DNA from: Shigella phage ESh33
Strand: one strand, 5' to 3'
Sequence record: ON528743
DNA length: 64,000 nt
Shown one piece after another: positions 38,341-41,719 of the stretch. Numbering within the stretch: the first letter of the stretch is position 1; each line of letters opens with the position of its first letter. The position numbers and the translations under genes are program-made. The notes under the pieces were generated by a model. That model saw only the letters and a list, made by a program, of their open reading frames with translations. It did not search any database and had not been told where the DNA came from.

Positions 38341-38631
38341 ATGATTCTTTATGCTAAAGTATCATCAATTGAAAATGGATATAAATATGATCAAGACGCG
38401 GCTAAAGCCTTGATTGATGATTATGGTGTTTTAACATGTTTTGAAGTTGAAAAGGTTTATGTTGACCGTTCATCTTCTCAAGTTAAATTAGTGAAGGAAG
38501 ACCATAAATTTAATACAGTAAATTTTGATTTCTTTATTGAAACAGAAAAAGGTCCTCTTGAATATGATATTTTCAAGAATCCTTTGGGTCTTGAATGTAT
38601 TCAGAAAACGTATATTAATGCAGCGTGGTGA
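38341..38631 (+). CDS. hypothetical protein (96 aa)
   Basis: ORF coupled to preceding stop. Confidence 0.55.
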   Translation: MILYAKVSSIENGYKYDQDAAKALIDDYGVLTCFEVEKVYVDRSSSQVKLVKEDHKFNTVNFDFFIETEKGPLEYDIFKNPLGLECIQKTYINAAW

Positions 38632-38633
38632 AA

Positions 38634-39149
38634 ATGAATATTTGTTTAGGTACTACAATTCCACAGGGTTACGTAATTGATGTCACTACCTGGGAAAATG
38701 ATGGTGACAACTATAAAACTAAAACACTGTTTGGCGTAGAAGAGCATGAAATCTTACAATTCCAATATCTTTTAAAGAAGTTTAAAAGCAGACATTCTAG
38801 TACTAAAGCTGAACGTTATTGTGGTAATGGCTTGTTCAGCGAGCAATCGCTTTTTATTTATGAATACTTGGTTGAAGGACTGTTCTCAGAACAACTTTAT
38901 CCAGAATTCATTAAAAAGGTCTTTGACATAGAAGTTGACCTTGGTAATAAATCCGAAGAAGACGAAGAACGTGTATTTGACTTATTCTTTGTGAATGGTA
39001 ATAAAGTGCTTGAAGGACTTATTAATATTTTAGGTAATGCTTCTGAGTATTATGATTATGATTTTTTGCGTGTAGTTGAGAGTGTTAAATACTCTTATAT
39101 AGAAGAAGAAATTGTTTTGCCGACCGTTAAGATGTTTAATTTGCTTTAA
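38634..39149 (+). CDS. hypothetical protein (171 aa)
   Basis: ATG 38634 after GGTGG; track start 38625 is GTG. Confidence 0.55.
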   Translation: MNICLGTTIPQGYVIDVTTWENDGDNYKTKTLFGVEEHEILQFQYLLKKFKSRHSSTKAERYCGNGLFSEQSLFIYEYLVEGLFSEQLYPEFIKKVFDIEVDLGNKSEEDEERVFDLFFVNGNKVLEGLINILGNASEYYDYDFLRVVESVKYSYIEEEIVLPTVKMFNLL

Positions 39150-39235
39150 GAATTATTTGTTATTATTAACTCATACCGCACTGATTAATACCCTCTATCA
39201 TCAAGGGTTCTTATTTGAGAGCCTTTGTTAATAAT

Positions 39236-39308
39236 TGGGAATTAGCCAAGTTGGTAAGGCACTGGATTTTGATTCCAGGATGCAAAGGTTCGAGTCCTTT
39301 ATTCCCAG
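39236..39308 (+). tRNA. tRNA-Gln (anticodon UUG), no encoded CCA
   Basis: Cloverleaf by hand: acceptor TGGGAAT/ATTCCCA, anticodon loop TTTTGAT, T-arm GGTTCGAGTCC. Confidence 0.8.
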
Positions 39309-39309
39309 C

Positions 39310-39396
39310 GCGAGAATGGTCAAATTGGTAAAGGCACAGCACTTAAAATGCTGCGGAATGATTTCCTTGTGGGTTCGAGTCCCACTTCTCGCACCA
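39310..39396 (+). tRNA. tRNA-Leu (anticodon UAA), long variable arm, CCA encoded
   Basis: Acceptor GCGAGAA/TTCTCGC, anticodon loop CTTAAAA, T-arm GGGTTCGAGTCCC. Confidence 0.8.
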
Positions 39397-39401
39397 AATT
39401 T

Positions 39402-39475
<74 letters not shown>

Positions 39476-39485
39476 ATTTAATTTA

Positions 39486-39559
39486 CTCCGTGTAGCTCAG
39501 TTTGGTAGAGCGCCTGATTTGGGATCAGGAGGTCCAAGGTTCAAATCCTTGTATGGAGA
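39486..39559 (+). tRNA. tRNA-Pro (anticodon UGG), no encoded CCA
   Basis: Acceptor CTCCGTG/TATGGAG with G-U pairs, anticodon loop TTTGGGA, T-arm GGTTCAAATCC. Confidence 0.75.
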
Positions 39560-39561
39560 CT

Positions 39562-39651
39562 GGAGGCGTGGCAGAGTGGTTTAATGCACCGGTCTTGAAA
39601 ACCGGCAGTCGCTCCGGCGACTCATAGGTTCAAATCCTATCGCCTCCGCCA
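39562..39651 (+). tRNA. tRNA-Ser (anticodon UGA), long variable arm
   Basis: Acceptor GGAGGCG/CGCCTCC, anticodon loop CTTGAAA, T-arm GGTTCAAATCC, CCA encoded. Confidence 0.8.
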
Positions 39652-39656
39652 GTTTT

Positions 39657-39732
39657 GCTGATTTAGCTCAATAGGTAGAGCAACTCACTTGTAATGAGAA
39701 GGTCGGCGGTTCGATTCCGTCAATCAGCACCA
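39657..39732 (+). tRNA. tRNA-Thr (anticodon UGU)
   Basis: Acceptor GCTGATT/AATCAGC, anticodon loop CTTGTAA, T-arm GGTTCGATTCC, CCA encoded. Confidence 0.75.
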
Positions 39733-39733
39733 A

Positions 39734-39808
39734 GGCCCTGTAGCTGGAAGGTTCAAGCAAGCGACTCATAATCGCCAGATGGTGGTTCAATTCCACCCAG
39801 GGCCACCA
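39734..39808 (+). tRNA. tRNA with anticodon CAU (Ile2 if lysidine-modified, otherwise Met)
   Basis: Acceptor GGCCCTG/CAGGGCC, anticodon loop CTCATAA, T-arm GGTTCAATTCC, CCA encoded. Confidence 0.7.
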
Positions 39809-39814
39809 AATTAA

Positions 39815-39901
39815 GGGGAGTTATCCCGTAGAGGTAGCGGTGTGGACTGTAAATCCATTGTCATTGCGACTCGGGTGGTTCGACTCCATCACTCCCCACC
39901 A
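39815..39901 (+). tRNA. tRNA-Tyr (anticodon GUA), long variable arm
   Basis: Acceptor GGGGAGT/ACTCCCC, anticodon loop CTGTAAA, T-arm GGTTCGACTCC, CCA encoded; not among the eight T4 tRNAs as I recall them. Confidence 0.7.
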
Positions 39902-39905
39902 ATTT

Positions 39906-39980
39906 GGATGTGTAGCTCAATGGCAGAGCGATCGCCTGTTAAGCGATTGGTTATAGGTTCGAATCCTATCACGTCCGCCA
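39906..39980 (+). tRNA. tRNA-Asn (anticodon GUU)
   Basis: Acceptor GGATGTG/CACGTCC, anticodon loop CTGTTAA, T-arm GGTTCGAATCC, CCA encoded. Confidence 0.7.
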
Positions 39981-40094
39981 AATTTGTGACAACTGTCACA
40001 TTAATATCTACTTGACGCGATTATAGGGGTTGAACTGATCACTCTTCTCTTAATTTCGTGTGAAGACATCATGATTGTTGGAGTAGATATTAAT
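39981..40094 (+). ncRNA. 114-nt structured spacer inside the tRNA array; candidate small stable RNA or processing element
   Basis: No ORF; long-range inverted repeat CATTAATATCTAC (39998-40010) / GTAGATATTAATG (40083-40095) and local palindrome GTGACAACTGTCAC. Confidence 0.3.
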
Positions 40095-40170
40095 GTGGCC
40101 GTAGTTCAGTTGGTAGAACTCGAGATTGTGATTCTCGTAGTCATGGGTTCGACTCCCATCGGTCACCCCA
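40095..40170 (+). tRNA. tRNA-His (anticodon GUG); position -1 is T, so no encoded G-1
   Basis: Acceptor GTGGCCG/CGGTCAC, anticodon loop TTGTGAT, T-arm GGGTTCGACTCCC, CCA encoded. Confidence 0.7.
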
Positions 40171-40174
40171 ATTA

Positions 40175-40250
40175 CGGGGCATAGCTCAGAAGGAAGAGCA
40201 AGGACCTTCTAAGTCCTAGGTCGTAGGTTCGATCCCTACTGCCTCGACCA
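40175..40250 (+). tRNA. tRNA-Arg (anticodon UCU)
   Basis: Acceptor CGGGGCA/TGCCTCG, anticodon loop CTTCTAA, T-arm GGTTCGATCCC, CCA encoded. Confidence 0.75.
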
Positions 40251-40268
40251 ATTATAAGTGAGGAAAAT

Positions 40269-40619
40269 ATGAAAGGTAATGTTTATTTAGTAGTTCATGA
40301 TTTAACATTCTATTTTAATCATAATGATACTGCTATTTCTGAACGTGTAATTAATTTACTTTATCAGCATGCAGATTATGTTTATGTTGAAAATGAATTT
40401 GGCCATTGGCAATTTCTCAAAAATCGTTCATTTGGTTTAGATGGTTACGAATACTTTGATCGTAAAGACCTTTTAGATACAATTCCATTATCTACACAAT
40501 ATCAAAATCATAAGTCTTTACATAAATGCCGGCTAATTCGAAATGCTGAATCTGCGTATGAAGCAATTGATTTATGGCGTAAACGCCGTGAACAGATTGA
40601 TGCTTTAAAAGAATATTAA
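40269..40619 (+). CDS. hypothetical protein (116 aa)
   Basis: ORF with RBS GAGGAAAA directly after tRNA-Arg. Confidence 0.6.
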   Translation: MKGNVYLVVHDLTFYFNHNDTAISERVINLLYQHADYVYVENEFGHWQFLKNRSFGLDGYEYFDRKDLLDTIPLSTQYQNHKSLHKCRLIRNAESAYEAIDLWRKRREQIDALKEY

Positions 40620-40960
40620 GAAACCGGGTCGCTACCGGTAAGTCGTCGGACTGATGTTCCCTGTTTAAGGACTGGCATTAATAAATCTTTATGTTTTGTT
40701 AATGTCCCCTTATATCACAGCAGAAACGGCGCACCGAATTATCGATTCGAGGAAATATCTTTGCCGTAAGCCGAGTAGCGTTTTTGACGGAACGTTCGGA
40801 TATGGTCGAGATATGGCCTTTTAAAAATATTGAGTAGCGTCAACTGCTTGATAACCGGGTTCGAATCCCGGCGTTTCGTACAAACACTTGCCTTAGCAGG
40901 TGGAACCCCGACAAGGTTGCCGCAAGGCTTAGCCCCAGCCGAAAGGTTGGGGCTTTTTAG
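40620..40960 (+). ncRNA. ORF-free structured region; candidate small stable RNA(s) ending in an intrinsic terminator
   Basis: ~340 nt without ORF; tRNA-like T-arm CCGGGTTCGAATCCCGG at 40854-40870; repeated GAGTAGCGT; terminator 40932-40958. Confidence 0.35.
40932..40958 (+). terminator. intrinsic terminator closing the tRNA / small RNA region
   Basis: GCCCCAGCC-GAAA-GGTTGGGGC then TTTTT. Confidence 0.7.
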
Positions 40961-40968
40961 TATAAATA
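40961..40968 (+). promoter_or_regulatory. late promoter for the IP-like gene at 41005
   Basis: TATAAATA just after terminator 40932-40958, ~37 nt upstream of ATG. Confidence 0.6.
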
Positions 40969-41004
40969 AGTATATTAAATCTACAAATTAAAACAGGAAA
41001 TAAG

Positions 41005-41478
41005 ATGAAATCATATACTCAATTTTTAAATGAAGCGGTGTTAAATGAAGCGTCTAGCACCGAAATTCAAGCTGTCGCAAAAGCAGCCATTGCAGCGGGT
41101 AAATATTCCTATAAAGATGCTTCTGATGAATCACGATTCCAATTTGCTCGCGACATGAAAGCAGAAGGATTTACGGGGAATGCTGTTAGTATGGCCTGGA
41201 AAAGTTTAGTTGCTACTGGCGCTGCTTTTGCAAAGGCTTCAGGTAAACCTGCTCCTAAAGCAGATCCTAAAGTCACACAAGAGAAAAATATCGTTAAAGG
41301 AATTATCTCCAAATATGAAGCTATCCTTAAAGAGCTTTTAGTAATCAAAACTGAAGGCCAAAAGCTAGCTCGTGCTTATAGTTTCAAAGATAACCCACAT
41401 GTTCACTCTCTTGAGTATGTTGAAGACATCCAAAAAATTATTAAAGACCGCATTTGGTCTGCTAAACAAATCAAATAA
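41005..41478 (+). CDS. predicted capsid-targeted internal protein (novel IP-like)
   Basis: 157 aa; N-terminus MKSYTQFLNE-A resembles the CTS of ipI/ipII/ipIII with L-N-E cleavage motif; basic Lys/Ala-rich body; late promoter TATAAATA at 40961-40968; terminator at 41487-41514. Confidence 0.6.
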   Translation: MKSYTQFLNEAVLNEASSTEIQAVAKAAIAAGKYSYKDASDESRFQFARDMKAEGFTGNAVSMAWKSLVATGAAFAKASGKPAPKADPKVTQEKNIVKGIISKYEAILKELLVIKTEGQKLARAYSFKDNPHVHSLEYVEDIQKIIKDRIWSAKQIK

Positions 41479-41486
41479 CATTCTTA

Positions 41487-41514
41487 GCCCTAGCCAAAAG
41501 GTTGGGGCTTTTTG
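41487..41514 (+). terminator. intrinsic terminator after the IP-like gene
   Basis: GCCCTAGCC-AAAA-GGTTGGGGC then TTTTTG; near-duplicate of the 40932 hairpin. Confidence 0.7.
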
Positions 41515-41647
41515 ATATCTAGGCCTTTCCAGGCCTCTCTAGACATCGTTTAGTTTCTACCCTTTATAATATATTATCCTATCCTTTGATTTCCCCTCCC
41601 TGCCCTAGAATTCCCCAAAACTTTTTAAAAATTTTTTCACAAAACTG

Positions 41648-41676
41648 TTTACATCCTTGTCCTTCCATGGTACTAT
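41648..41676 (+). promoter_or_regulatory. sigma70-like early promoter
   Basis: TTTACA-17-TACTAT with TGG extension; A/T-rich upstream element. Confidence 0.6.
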
Positions 41677-41719
41677 ACAACTATCAACTACTGATACAGA
41701 AAACAACTTGGAGAATGAA

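What the first reader, a model, noticed from the sequence alone, without database searches (positions are those of the whole stretch)
40620..40960. 340-nt ORF-free region with a tRNA-like T-arm ending in a terminator
After the 116-aa ORF that follows tRNA-Arg there is no ORF until a strong terminator at 40932. The interval contains a perfect T-arm-like stem-loop CCGGG-TTCGAAT-CCCGG (40854-40870), a repeated 9-mer GAGTAGCGT (40773 and 40831), and is more GC-rich than the surrounding coding DNA. It is a candidate for one or two stable RNAs co-transcribed with the tRNAs; it could also be a degenerate tRNA or a ribozyme-like element.
Basis: seen in the sequence. Interest (0 to 1): 0.45.

Follow-up and report, generated by a model that had tools for sequence, protein, structure and literature searches.

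The report
Phage T4 stable RNAs RNAD and RNAC

Summary
The window comes from a T4-like phage (Tequatrovirus; 100% identical here to Shigella phage ESH35). Alignment to the annotated T4 and RB68 genomes shows that 40616-40735 is rnaD (species 2 RNA) and 40742-40880 is rnaC (species 1 RNA). A conserved 50-nt trailer and an intrinsic terminator (40931-40959) follow.

The T-arm is at 40855-40871 and the 9-mer at 40773 and 40832. GC is about 0.42-0.45, against 0.30-0.37 in the flanking coding DNA.

New here: RNAC folds into a four-way junction. It has a 7-bp acceptor-like stem stacked on a canonical T-arm, plus two non-tRNA hairpins. Across 18 homologues from at least six Tevenvirinae genera, 94.7% of cells are paired and 31 of 44 pairs show compensatory changes. 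The two hairpin loops (UUGACG and CGUCAA) are complementary in all homologues, which suggests a kissing loop. RNAC and RNAD occur independently of each other in other genera.

No Rfam family matches. The small ORFs that gene callers and PHROGs place here look spurious. The papers found, dated 2010 to 2025, call the function unknown.

Verdict: already known, correctly spotted, low novelty.

The parts
40616..40735 (+). RNAD (T4 species 2 RNA) homologue, 120 nt. The ends are inferred from the T4/RB68 annotation, and the 5' end overlaps the stop codon of the 116-aa ORF.
   Evidence: Alignment to T4 rnaD (71053-71171) and RB68 rnaD. It is 88% identical to T4 and 99% to RB68. A 45-nt 5' block and a 20-nt 3' block are invariant across Tequatro-, Mosig- and Dhakavirus.
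40623..40639 (+). RNAD 5' hairpin ACCGG-GUCGCUA-CCGGU (5-bp stem, 7-nt loop).
   Evidence: Present in the minimum-free-energy fold of all 11 homologues. It is invariant apart from an A/G change that keeps the closing pair.
40642..40734 (+). RNAD long irregular hairpin, closed by GUCGUCG/CGGCG-AC. Its apical part (about 40662-40714) is replaced by unrelated sequence in other lineages.
   Evidence: Three unrelated apical sequences (T4 type, T2 type, Dhakavirus type) all fold as hairpins. Five pairs show compensatory change. The basal pairs never vary, so they are uninformative.
40736..40741 (+). 6-nt spacer GAAUUA between RNAD and RNAC.
   Evidence: This is the gap between the two annotated RNAs in T4 and RB68. 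An A-rich 5-6-nt spacer also precedes RNAC where a tRNA lies upstream.
40742..40880 (+). RNAC (T4 species 1 RNA) homologue, 139 nt: a tRNA-like four-way junction.
   Evidence: 136 of 139 positions are identical to T4 rnaC. It scores 153 bits with covariance model R1. Fold z-score is -3.8. On 18 homologues, 94.7% of cells are paired and 31 of 44 pairs show compensatory change.
40743..40749 (+). RNAC acceptor-like stem, 5' strand (CGAUUCG). It pairs with 40872-40878.
   Evidence: This is a 7-bp helix with two U.U mismatches in T4-type, Karamvirus and Gelderlandvirus sequences. It is fully Watson-Crick in phiR1-RT and PM2. Pair 3 switches between A-U and G-C.
40750..40819 (+). RNAC long arm (about 70 nt) in the place of a D-arm. 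Its apical loop carries UUGACG at 40784-40789.
   Evidence: Helices 2-4: 18 of 23 pairs show compensatory change. The stem sequence is wholly replaced in VPA32, Melville and PM2, but its length and the loop motif are kept.
40828..40853 (+). RNAC second hairpin (about 10 bp). Its loop is CGUCAA at 40838-40843.
   Evidence: Helix 5: 7 of 9 pairs show compensatory change. The loop is complementary to 40784-40789 in 18 of 18 homologues, with one C-G to U-A double change.
40855..40871 (+). RNAC T-arm CCGGG-UUCGAAU-CCCGG.
   Evidence: Helix 6 is 100% paired, and the middle pair occurs as U-A, G-C, A-U or U-G.
40872..40880 (+). RNAC acceptor 3' strand (CGUUUCG), then U40879 at the discriminator position and A40880, the annotated 3' end.
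   Evidence: After the stem every homologue has U followed by ACA, UCA or, in PM2, CCA.
40881..40930 (+). 3' trailer with small hairpins at 40885-40902, 40904-40918 and 40919-40928. It is presumably removed during 3' maturation.
   Evidence: Fold (z = -3.9 including the terminator). The stretch from 40883 to about 40917 is almost invariant in Tequatro-, Mosig- and Dhakavirus (Dhakavirus lacks one base in the first hairpin's loop), and in Dhakavirus it directly follows RNAD.
40931..40959 (+). Intrinsic terminator of the tRNA/RNAD/RNAC transcription unit.
   Evidence: 10-bp stem with 7 G-C pairs and a GAAA loop, followed by TTTTT. PMC2330249 states that T4 tRNA-cluster transcription terminates after the species I gene.

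Best explanation
The interval holds two known non-coding RNA genes of T-even phages: rnaD (species 2 RNA, 40616-40735) and rnaC (species 1 RNA, 40742-40880). A trailer and the intrinsic terminator (40931-40959) that closes the tRNA transcription unit follow them.

Shown here:
- Homology to the annotated T4 and RB68 genes.
- The RNAC secondary structure, supported by covariation. It is a four-way junction. A 7-bp acceptor-like stem stacks on a canonical 5-bp T-arm with a UUCGAAU loop. A roughly 70-nt arm and a 26-nt hairpin take the places of the D-arm and anticodon arm.

Inferred from established tRNA biology:
- The 12-bp acceptor/T-arm stack makes RNAC a substrate for host RNase P at its 5' end.
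- It also exposes RNAC to the tRNA 3'-end machinery (trimming to the discriminator U, possibly CCA repair).
- This would explain how a discrete, stable RNA of about 140 nt is cut out of the tRNA polycistron.

New inference:
- The two non-tRNA loops (UUGACG at 40784-89 and CGUCAA at 40838-43) probably base-pair as a kissing loop that locks the non-tRNA half.

RNAD is a separate module: an invariant 5' hairpin plus a long hairpin with a freely replaceable tip.

The molecular function is not established for either RNA. My best guess, at about 30%, is that RNAC is a structural tRNA mimic that binds a tRNA-recognising host or phage protein as a decoy or sponge and does not decode. RNAD would act through its invariant single-stranded and loop sequence on a host-specific partner.
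For: Identity:
- RB68 annotates rnaD and rnaC on the homologous bases. T4 annotates rnaD at 71053-71171 and rnaC at 70908-71046.
- The alignment maps these to 40616-40735 and 40742-40880. RNAC matches at 136 of 139 positions.
- About 800 phage records carry the region.

Expression in T4:
- RNAC and RNAD were classified as late RNAs, with northern-blot validation (RNAC probe) (PMC9697503).
- They are part of a roughly 1.75-kb tRNA precursor that terminates after the species I gene (PMC2330249).

Structure:
- RNAalifold found 28 of 42 pairs with compensatory change on 8 sequences.
- On 18 sequences, 94.7% of cells are paired, against 37-47% when the partners are slid. 31 of 44 pairs have double changes, and 0 of 500 shuffles reach any of the five measures.
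- The acceptor stem is imperfect (two U.U) in T4 but fully Watson-Crick in phiR1-RT and PM2.

Specificity:
- Model R1 scores RNAC homologues at 116-157 bits and ordinary tRNAs at only 13-27 bits.

Kissing loop:
- 99.1% of cells are paired, against 17-52% when slid. It is kept even where the long arm's stem sequence is replaced. There is one compensatory C-G to U-A change.

Terminator.

RNase P recognising the tRNA domain, and the CCA-less T4 tRNA precursors: PMC11143913.
Against: - No RNA data exist for this particular phage, so the ends are transferred from T4.
- Here a 116-aa ORF sits between tRNA-Arg and RNAD, where T4 has one nucleotide. The RNAD 5' end therefore cannot arise the same way and is uncertain.
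- The annotated RNAC 5' end (U40742) lies one base upstream of the 7-bp stem. This is not the canonical RNase P product. Either the mature RNA keeps a -1 U opposite the discriminator U, or the annotation is off by one.
- The kissing loop rests on a single evolutionary event of covariation. Its geometry is also untested, since a 25-bp arm must fold back to reach a 10-bp hairpin. The pairing could be intermolecular or part of an alternative fold.
- The decoy function is pure inference. T4 tRNA-region deletions are viable on laboratory hosts (from memory, not checked here), and reviews from 2010 to 2025 call the function unknown.
- Rfam has no family for either RNA.
Confidence: 0.93

Rival explanations
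1. The region is a decayed tRNA gene (or genes) plus junk spacer. It is carried passively between the tRNA cluster and its terminator, and any RNA made from it is a by-product of processing with no function.
For: A perfect T-arm and an acceptor-like stem without an anticodon arm look like tRNA remnants. Ordinary tRNAs give weak hits to the RNAC model. The tRNA region is described as not essential for phage development (PMC2330249). Dhakaviruses have lost RNAC, and several other genera lack RNAD.
Against: All six RNAC helices, including the two non-tRNA arms, are maintained by compensatory substitutions across at least six genera, and the length stays at 142 +/- 2 nt. The loop motifs UUGACG, CGUCAA and GGCC are invariant while the stems drift. 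RNAD has a 45-nt block that is invariant across three genera. This pattern indicates purifying selection on an RNA structure, not decay.
Confidence: 0.03
2. The region encodes small proteins: the 42-aa ORF at 40696-40824 and the 53-aa ORF at 40830-40991. Automated annotations of many T4-like genomes and two PHROG families treat them as such.
For: Both ORFs match PHROG profiles strongly (phrog_24262 at 3e-34, phrog_28391 at 5e-38). They are annotated as hypothetical proteins in ESH35, ESh30 and many other records.
Against: Both start with TTG and lie on experimentally known RNAs. T4 itself has an in-frame stop in the 42-aa frame. Divergent RNAC homologues have 1-3 stops or frame-breaking single-base indels. 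Variable columns show no third-codon-position excess: 22/27, 21/28 and 22/28 for one ORF, and 14/18, 8/18 and 11/18 for the other. The N-terminus of the 42-aa ORF lies in RNAD, which is absent wherever RNAC stands alone. The substitutions follow RNA pairing instead. The PHROG families are most simply explained as clusters of the same miscalled ORFs.
Confidence: 0.02
3. The structured RNAs act mainly in cis. As 3'-terminal structured modules of the tRNA polycistron, they would protect it from 3' exonucleases or organise the order of RNase P, RNase E and RNase III cuts. They would not act as free trans-acting RNAs.
For: They always lie inside or at the 3' end of tRNA clusters, on the same strand. 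The trailer 40883-40917 is invariant even where RNAC is missing. In the precursor fold, GAAACG at 40723-28 in RNAD can pair with CGUUUC at 40872-77 in RNAC, giving an alternative acceptor stem. This suggests precursor-level conformations.
Against: In T4 they accumulate as discrete stable species late in infection (PMC9697503). In Karam-, Gelderland-, Teguna- and Mosugukvirus, RNAC sits in the middle of the cluster between two tRNAs, not at the 3' end. The non-tRNA arms and their loop complementarity are conserved far beyond what a processing signal would need.
Confidence: 0.1

Closest known systems
Bacteriophage T4 rnaC (species 1 RNA, 'band C') and rnaD (species 2 RNA, 'band D')
   Same: These are orthologous. 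The order is the same (tRNA cluster, rnaD, 6-nt spacer, rnaC, trailer, terminator), as is the strand. RNAC is 98% identical and RNAD about 88%. The RB68, RB59 and RB3 records annotate the same features.
   Different: This phage has the T2-type tRNA region: 11 tRNAs, no segB, and a 116-aa ORF ('trna.2' of T2L) inserted between tRNA-Arg and rnaD. The RNAD 5' end therefore abuts an ORF stop codon, where T4 has tRNA-Arg's CCA. The apical RNAD hairpin differs from T4 at about 14 positions.
Canonical tRNA (Rfam RF00005)
   Same: A 7-bp acceptor stem is stacked coaxially on a 5-bp T-stem with a GGUUCGAAUCC T-loop. A single discriminator base follows, and the gene sits in a tRNA cluster. By inference it shares RNase P and 3'-end processing.
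   Different: There is no D-arm and no 7-nt anticodon loop. In their places are a 70-nt arm and a 26-nt hairpin with 6-nt loops. Total length is 139 nt. Two U.U mismatches sit in the acceptor stem. CCA is not encoded, except in PM2. ARAGORN does not detect it, and the Rfam tRNA model does not either.
tRNA-like domains of other non-decoding RNAs (tmRNA TLD, bacterial YrlA, plant-virus 3' tRNA-like structures, mascRNA)
   Same: The principle is the same: an acceptor/T-arm mimic that recruits tRNA enzymes, grafted onto non-tRNA structure. This comparison comes from my own knowledge.
   Different: ARAGORN finds no tmRNA. Within the RNAC/RNAD interval Rfam gives no YrlA or tmRNA match at E <= 10. 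RNAC has no tag reading frame, and it is phage-encoded and much smaller than tmRNA. No sequence or model relationship was found.
Loop-loop ('kissing') complexes such as ColE1 RNA I/RNA II or the HIV-1 DIS
   Same: Two hairpins with similar stems (GUAG/CUAC) carry fully complementary 6-nt loops.
   Different: Here both loops are in one molecule, and the interaction is only predicted. This is a comparison of mechanism from my own knowledge, not a claim of membership.

Membership tests
T4 RNAC (species 1 RNA) | Sequence homology to T4 rnaC over its full length | tested here: met
   136 of 139 positions are identical to NC_000866 70908-71046. It scores 153 bits with model R1.
T4 RNAC (species 1 RNA) | Location in or at the end of the phage tRNA cluster, on the same strand, upstream of the cluster's terminator | tested here: met
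   tRNAs lie at 39236-40250 (+), RNAC at 40742-40880 (+) and the terminator at 40931-40959 (+). The order matches T4 and RB68.
T4 RNAC (species 1 RNA) | Conserved secondary structure (acceptor/T-arm plus two further arms) | tested here: met
   94.7% of cells are paired, 31 of 44 pairs show compensatory change, and the slid controls give 37-47%.
T4 RNAC (species 1 RNA) | Accumulates as a discrete stable RNA of about 140 nt in infected cells | not testable with these tools
   Shown for T4 by northern blot (PMC9697503). There are no RNA data for this phage.
T4 RNAD (species 2 RNA) | Sequence homology to T4 rnaD and a position immediately upstream of rnaC | tested here: met
   About 88% identical to T4 and 99% to RB68. 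The 45-nt 5' block and the 20-nt 3' block are identical. A 6-nt spacer separates it from RNAC, as in T4.
T4 RNAD (species 2 RNA) | Discrete stable RNA of about 120 nt whose 5' end lies next to tRNA-Arg | tested here: inconclusive
   In this phage a 116-aa ORF separates tRNA-Arg from RNAD. The 5' end is therefore inferred by homology only, and there are no RNA data.
tRNA (RF00005) | 7-bp acceptor stem plus a 5-bp T-stem with a T-loop consensus | tested here: met
tRNA (RF00005) | D-arm and an anticodon arm with a 7-nt loop, in a cloverleaf of 70-95 nt | tested here: not met
   ARAGORN reports no tRNA here. The Rfam tRNA model gives no hit at E <= 10; there is only a tRNA-Sec hit at 16.4 bits, E = 9.5. 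The other arms are 70 and 26 nt with 6-nt loops.
tmRNA | tRNA-like domain plus a tag-peptide reading frame and pseudoknots | tested here: not met
   ARAGORN finds no tmRNA in the window, and Rfam gives no match.
   cmscan of 39000-41700 at E <= 10 lists only tRNA-related and chance-level hits in 40616-40960.
Intrinsic (rho-independent) terminator | G+C-rich hairpin followed directly by a U-run | tested here: met
   40931-40954: 10 bp with 7 G-C pairs and a 4-nt loop, then TTTTT.

The most novel reading that the evidence does not exclude
RNAC is a dedicated tRNA mimic conserved across enterobacterial Tevenvirinae. Its acceptor/T-arm half engages a tRNA-recognising factor, such as a host tRNA-targeting defence nuclease, the CCA-adding enzyme, RNase P or an elongation factor. 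A kissing-loop-locked module replaces the anticodon half, so RNAC would work as a decoy, sponge or sensor that shapes host range. RNAD would be a second, independently mobile host-specific module. That fits the convergent rnaD SNP seen when a T4-like phage adapted to ECOR34 (PMC12685909).
Probability: 0.15. Interest if true: 0.7.

Novelty: already known. Interest (0 to 1): 0.22.

Why it matters
For this window the result mainly tidies the annotation. The stretch is two known RNA genes, not an unexplained gap, and the 'hypothetical proteins' that many T4-like records and two PHROG families place on it are very likely artefacts.

More broadly, RNAC and RNAD are among the oldest orphan RNAs in molecular biology. 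They were sequenced in the 1970s, and papers from 2010, 2022 and 2025 still call their function unknown.

The comparative results here give concrete handles for a functional study:
- a covariation-supported four-way-junction model of RNAC;
- its presence, unannotated, in at least five further Tevenvirinae genera;
- the independent occurrence of RNAC and RNAD;
- a predicted loop-loop interaction.

None of these changes the classification of the finding.

Tried and rejected
- **Rfam.** A scan at E <= 10 found no family for RNAC or RNAD; only a 16-bit tRNA-Sec hit overlaps RNAC.
- **Faulty pattern.** My first degenerate pattern for viral contigs had one base too many and matched nothing, not even the window. 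I corrected it.
- **Cellular homologues.** An RNAC pattern found 0 matches in 185,579 bacterial and archaeal genomes. Metagenome and IMG/VR scans returned only T4-like contigs and added no new diversity.
- **Alternative acceptor stem.** The precursor fold pairs GAAACG (40723-28, inside RNAD) with CGUUUC (40872-77). I rejected this as the conserved stem. Phages lacking RNAD keep RNAC, and covariation supports pairing with RNAC's own 5' strand. It may still form transiently in the precursor.
- **Coding potential of the 42- and 53-aa ORFs.** Rejected, despite the PHROG hits.
- **RNAD as a tRNA-like RNA.** It has no T-arm, and only the variable arm gives covariation; the core is invariant and therefore uninformative. 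RNAD ends in ...CACC, followed by A in T4 but G here, so an encoded CCA-like end is not conserved.
- **RNAD-RNAC loop pairing.** The RNAD loop CGCUA is complementary to the UAGCG in both RNAC 9-mers. I noted it but did not pursue it. It is 5-6 nt, lies mostly in stems, and RNAC keeps the motif where RNAD is absent.
- **Processing literature.** Searches for the classical work (p2Sp1, Pragai/Apirion, RNase III) found nothing usable, and Miller et al. 2003 is not held. Statements about an RNase III or 'RNase F' role in maturation therefore remain my recollection and are not used as evidence.

Full report
**What is there**

The window is a T4-like myovirus. The interval 40600-40980 is 100% identical to Shigella phage ESH35 and 90-99% identical to several hundred Tequatrovirus genomes.

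ARAGORN finds 11 tRNA genes on the + strand at 39236-40250. A 116-aa ORF follows at 40269-40619, and the next substantial ORF starts at 41005.

- The T-arm CCGGG-UUCGAAU-CCCGG is at 40855-40871, one base to the right of the reported position.
- The 9-mer GAGTAGCGT occurs at 40773 and 40832. That is two copies against 0.17 expected, and 0 of 100 shuffles reached 2.
- GC is about 0.42 over the region and 0.45 in RNAC, against 0.30-0.37 in the neighbouring coding DNA.
- A strong intrinsic terminator lies at 40931-40954 and is followed by TTTTT.
- The whole stretch folds far better than shuffled sequence, with z = -5.7.

**Identity**

The RB68 GenBank record annotates the homologous bases as ncRNA rnaD ('species II RNA') and rnaC. 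The T4 reference record annotates rnaD at 71053-71171 and rnaC at 70908-71046 as 'small, stable RNA; species 2/1 RNA'.

Pairwise alignment transfers these to the window:
- RNAD: 40616-40735
- 6-nt spacer GAAUUA: 40736-40741
- RNAC: 40742-40880

RNAC differs from T4 at 3 of 139 positions. One of these is in an unpaired position, and the other two convert A-U pairs to G.U pairs. RNAD is about 88% identical to T4.

Rfam 15 has no family for either RNA. The only overlapping hit is tRNA-Sec at 16.4 bits, E = 9.5.

**What the literature says**

- A 2022 transcriptome study classified both as late RNAs 'of yet unknown functions' and validated this by northern blot, using an RNAC riboprobe whose 5' end is the same TCGATTCGAGG found at 40742 (PMC9697503).
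- The SegB paper describes a primary transcript of about 1.75 kb. It is the precursor of the tRNAs and of species I and II RNAs, and it terminates after the species I gene. The paper also shows that T2L has a different tRNA-region layout, with extra tRNAs and two ORFs (PMC2330249). The window has this T2-type layout.
- A 2025 evolution experiment found a convergent SNP in rnaD when a T4-like phage adapted to E. coli ECOR34 (PMC12685909).

**Anatomy of RNAC**

The 139-nt RNA folds (z = -3.8) into a four-way junction:
- a 7-bp acceptor-like stem (40743-49 with 40872-78) containing two U.U mismatches;
- a roughly 70-nt composite arm (40750-40819);
- a hairpin of about 10 bp (40828-40853);
- the T-arm (40855-40871).

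The acceptor stem and T-stem together give the 12-bp coaxial stack typical of tRNA. A single U at the discriminator position follows the stack.

I looked for divergent homologues and found RNAC, unannotated, in four more genera:
- Karamvirus (ZX13, CW742, VPA32)
- Gelderlandvirus (Melville)
- Tegunavirus (phiR1-RT)
- Mosugukvirus (PM2)

In these phages it sits in a gap of about 150 nt next to tRNA-Trp. It is also present in Mosigvirus.

RNAalifold on 8 sequences gave 28 of 42 pairs with compensatory changes. A covariance model built from that alignment scores RNAC homologues at 116-157 bits and ordinary tRNAs at 13-27 bits.

On 18 distinct homologues:

| Measure | Result |
|---|---|
| Cells paired | 94.7% |
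| Cells paired with the 3' partner slid 1-3 columns | 37-47% |
| Pairs with double-sided changes | 31 of 44 |
| Shuffles reaching the observed value | 0 of 500 on every measure |

The acceptor stem is especially clear. It reads CGAUUCG/CGUUUCG in T4, CGGUUCG/CGUUCCG in Karamvirus, and the fully Watson-Crick CAGUCCG/CGGACUG in phiR1-RT and AGGUUCG/CGAAUCU in PM2. After the stem every homologue has U followed by ACA, UCA or, in PM2, CCA.

**A predicted loop-loop contact**

More striking, their loops are exact complements: UUGACG at 40784-89 and CGUCAA at 40838-43. This holds in 18 of 18 homologues. It holds even in VPA32, Melville, PM2 and L021, where the stem sequence of the long arm has been replaced altogether. 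The Tegunavirus lineage carries a double change, UUGAUG with CAUCAA. In that test 99.1% of cells are paired, against 17-52% when slid.

This is one evolutionary event, so I rate it as a good hypothesis and not a demonstrated contact. It could be intramolecular, intermolecular, or part of an alternative fold.

**Anatomy of RNAD**

RNAD consists of a 5' hairpin (40623-40639, 5 bp, loop GUCGCUA) and a long irregular hairpin closed by GUCGUCG/CGGCG-AC.

Across Tequatro-, Mosig- and Dhakavirus the first 45 nt or so and the last 20 nt or so are invariant. The apical 50 nt or so exist in three unrelated versions, and all three fold as hairpins. Covariation therefore supports only the variable arm; the invariant core says nothing either way.

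**Modularity**

- Dhakaviruses (JS98, IME08, C6) have RNAD directly followed by the trailer and terminator, with RNAC precisely absent.
- Karam-, Gelderland-, Teguna- and Mosugukviruses have RNAC without RNAD.
- The trailer 40883-40917 is almost invariant wherever it occurs; the only change seen is a one-base deletion in the first hairpin's loop in Dhakavirus.

**How it most likely works**

*Shown:* homology, structure, genomic context and the terminator.

*Inferred from established knowledge* of RNase P, which recognises the tRNA domain (the acceptor/T-arm stack), and of T4's CCA-less tRNA precursors (PMC11143913):
- RNAC is released from the polycistron by RNase P at its 5' side.
- Its 3' end is formed by tRNA 3' trimming, possibly with CCA repair.
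- Its tRNA-like compactness makes it stable.

One oddity is that the annotated 5' end (U40742) lies one base outside the 7-bp stem, opposite the discriminator U.

*Function* is not known. The conservation pattern, with invariant loops and a constant length of 142 +/- 2 nt, argues for a structure-dependent trans-acting role. I favour a tRNA mimic that binds a tRNA-recognising protein, at about 30%. RNAD's invariant sequence and the adaptive SNP hint at a host-specific partner.

**Rivals**

- *Decayed tRNA.* Contradicted by the covariation in all helices.
- *Small proteins.* The 42-aa and 53-aa TTG ORFs hit phrog_24262 and phrog_28391 and are annotated in many records. However, T4 has an in-frame stop, distant homologues have several, indels are not multiples of three, and there is no third-position bias. 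These families look like artefacts of gene calling over rnaC and rnaD.
- *A purely cis-acting processing or stability role.* It remains possible for part of the region, especially the trailer. It does not explain RNAC in mid-cluster positions or its accumulation as a discrete RNA.

**Limits of the search**

An RNAC sequence pattern found nothing in 185,579 bacterial and archaeal genomes and only T4-like contigs in metagenomes and IMG/VR. I could not retrieve the classical processing papers, so a role for RNase III in 3' maturation is not claimed.

**Verdict**

This is a correct reading of a known element. Novelty is nil for the element itself. The incidental value is modest: a structure model, a wider distribution, a candidate kissing loop, and the flagging of spurious protein families.

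Noticed in passing
window 40696-40824 and 40830-40991: Two TTG-start mini-ORFs (42 and 53 aa) lying on RNAD/RNAC DNA match PHROG families phrog_24262 (3e-34) and phrog_28391 (5e-38). Many T4-like genomes annotate them as hypothetical proteins. In-frame stops in T4 and in distant homologues, together with the lack of codon-position bias, indicate that these protein families are artefacts of gene callers run over rnaC and rnaD.
   Followed up: yes
window 40784-40789 and 40838-40843: The apical loops of the two non-tRNA hairpins of RNAC (UUGACG and CGUCAA) are perfectly complementary in all 18 homologues. One lineage shows a compensatory double change. This is a candidate kissing loop, which I did not find described in the papers I could search.
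   Followed up: partly
L003 2509-2652; L008 621-762; L009 528-669; L005 620-761; L006 602-743; L007 531-672: Full-length RNAC homologues (118-155 bits) sit unannotated next to tRNA-Trp in Karamvirus, Gelderlandvirus, Tegunavirus and Mosugukvirus genomes, without RNAD. In PM2 the RNA is followed by an encoded U-CCA, and its third acceptor pair is G.U.
   Followed up: partly
L004 about 2495-2700; L026; L027 (Dhakavirus JS98, IME08, C6): RNAD is present directly after tRNA-Arg, but RNAC is cleanly absent. RNAD is joined straight to the conserved trailer and terminator, so the two RNAs are independent modules.
   Followed up: partly
window 40269-40619: The 116-aa ORF between tRNA-Arg and RNAD is the 'trna.2' ORF of phage T2L (primer #24 in PMC2330249 closely matches its start) and belongs to phrog_3355, of unknown function. 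It is absent from T4, and its stop codon overlaps the homology-inferred 5' end of RNAD. RNAD 5'-end formation must therefore differ from T4, where RNAD starts one nucleotide after tRNA-Arg's CCA.
   Followed up: partly
window 40723-40728 with 40872-40877: In the fold of the unprocessed RNAD-RNAC precursor, GAAACG near the 3' end of RNAD pairs perfectly with CGUUUC, the 3' acceptor strand of RNAC. This competes with RNAC's own imperfect 5' strand. It may be a precursor-specific alternative conformation that affects the order of processing.
   Followed up: partly
window 41486-41509: A near-identical twin of the RNAC terminator (AGCCCTAGCCAAAAGGTTGGGGCT plus a T-run) follows the next gene, the 157-aa ORF at 41005-41478 (phrog_2280, unknown function). 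The terminator module is therefore duplicated about 550 bp apart.
   Followed up: no
window 40961-40968: The T4 late-promoter consensus TATAAATA lies immediately after the terminator's T-run and about 37 nt upstream of the 157-aa ORF. Another copy at 38380-38387 (+) lies upstream of the tRNA cluster.
   Followed up: no
window 39981-40094: A 114-nt gap without a tRNA or a sizeable ORF separates tRNA-Asn from tRNA-His inside the cluster. It was not examined.
   Followed up: no
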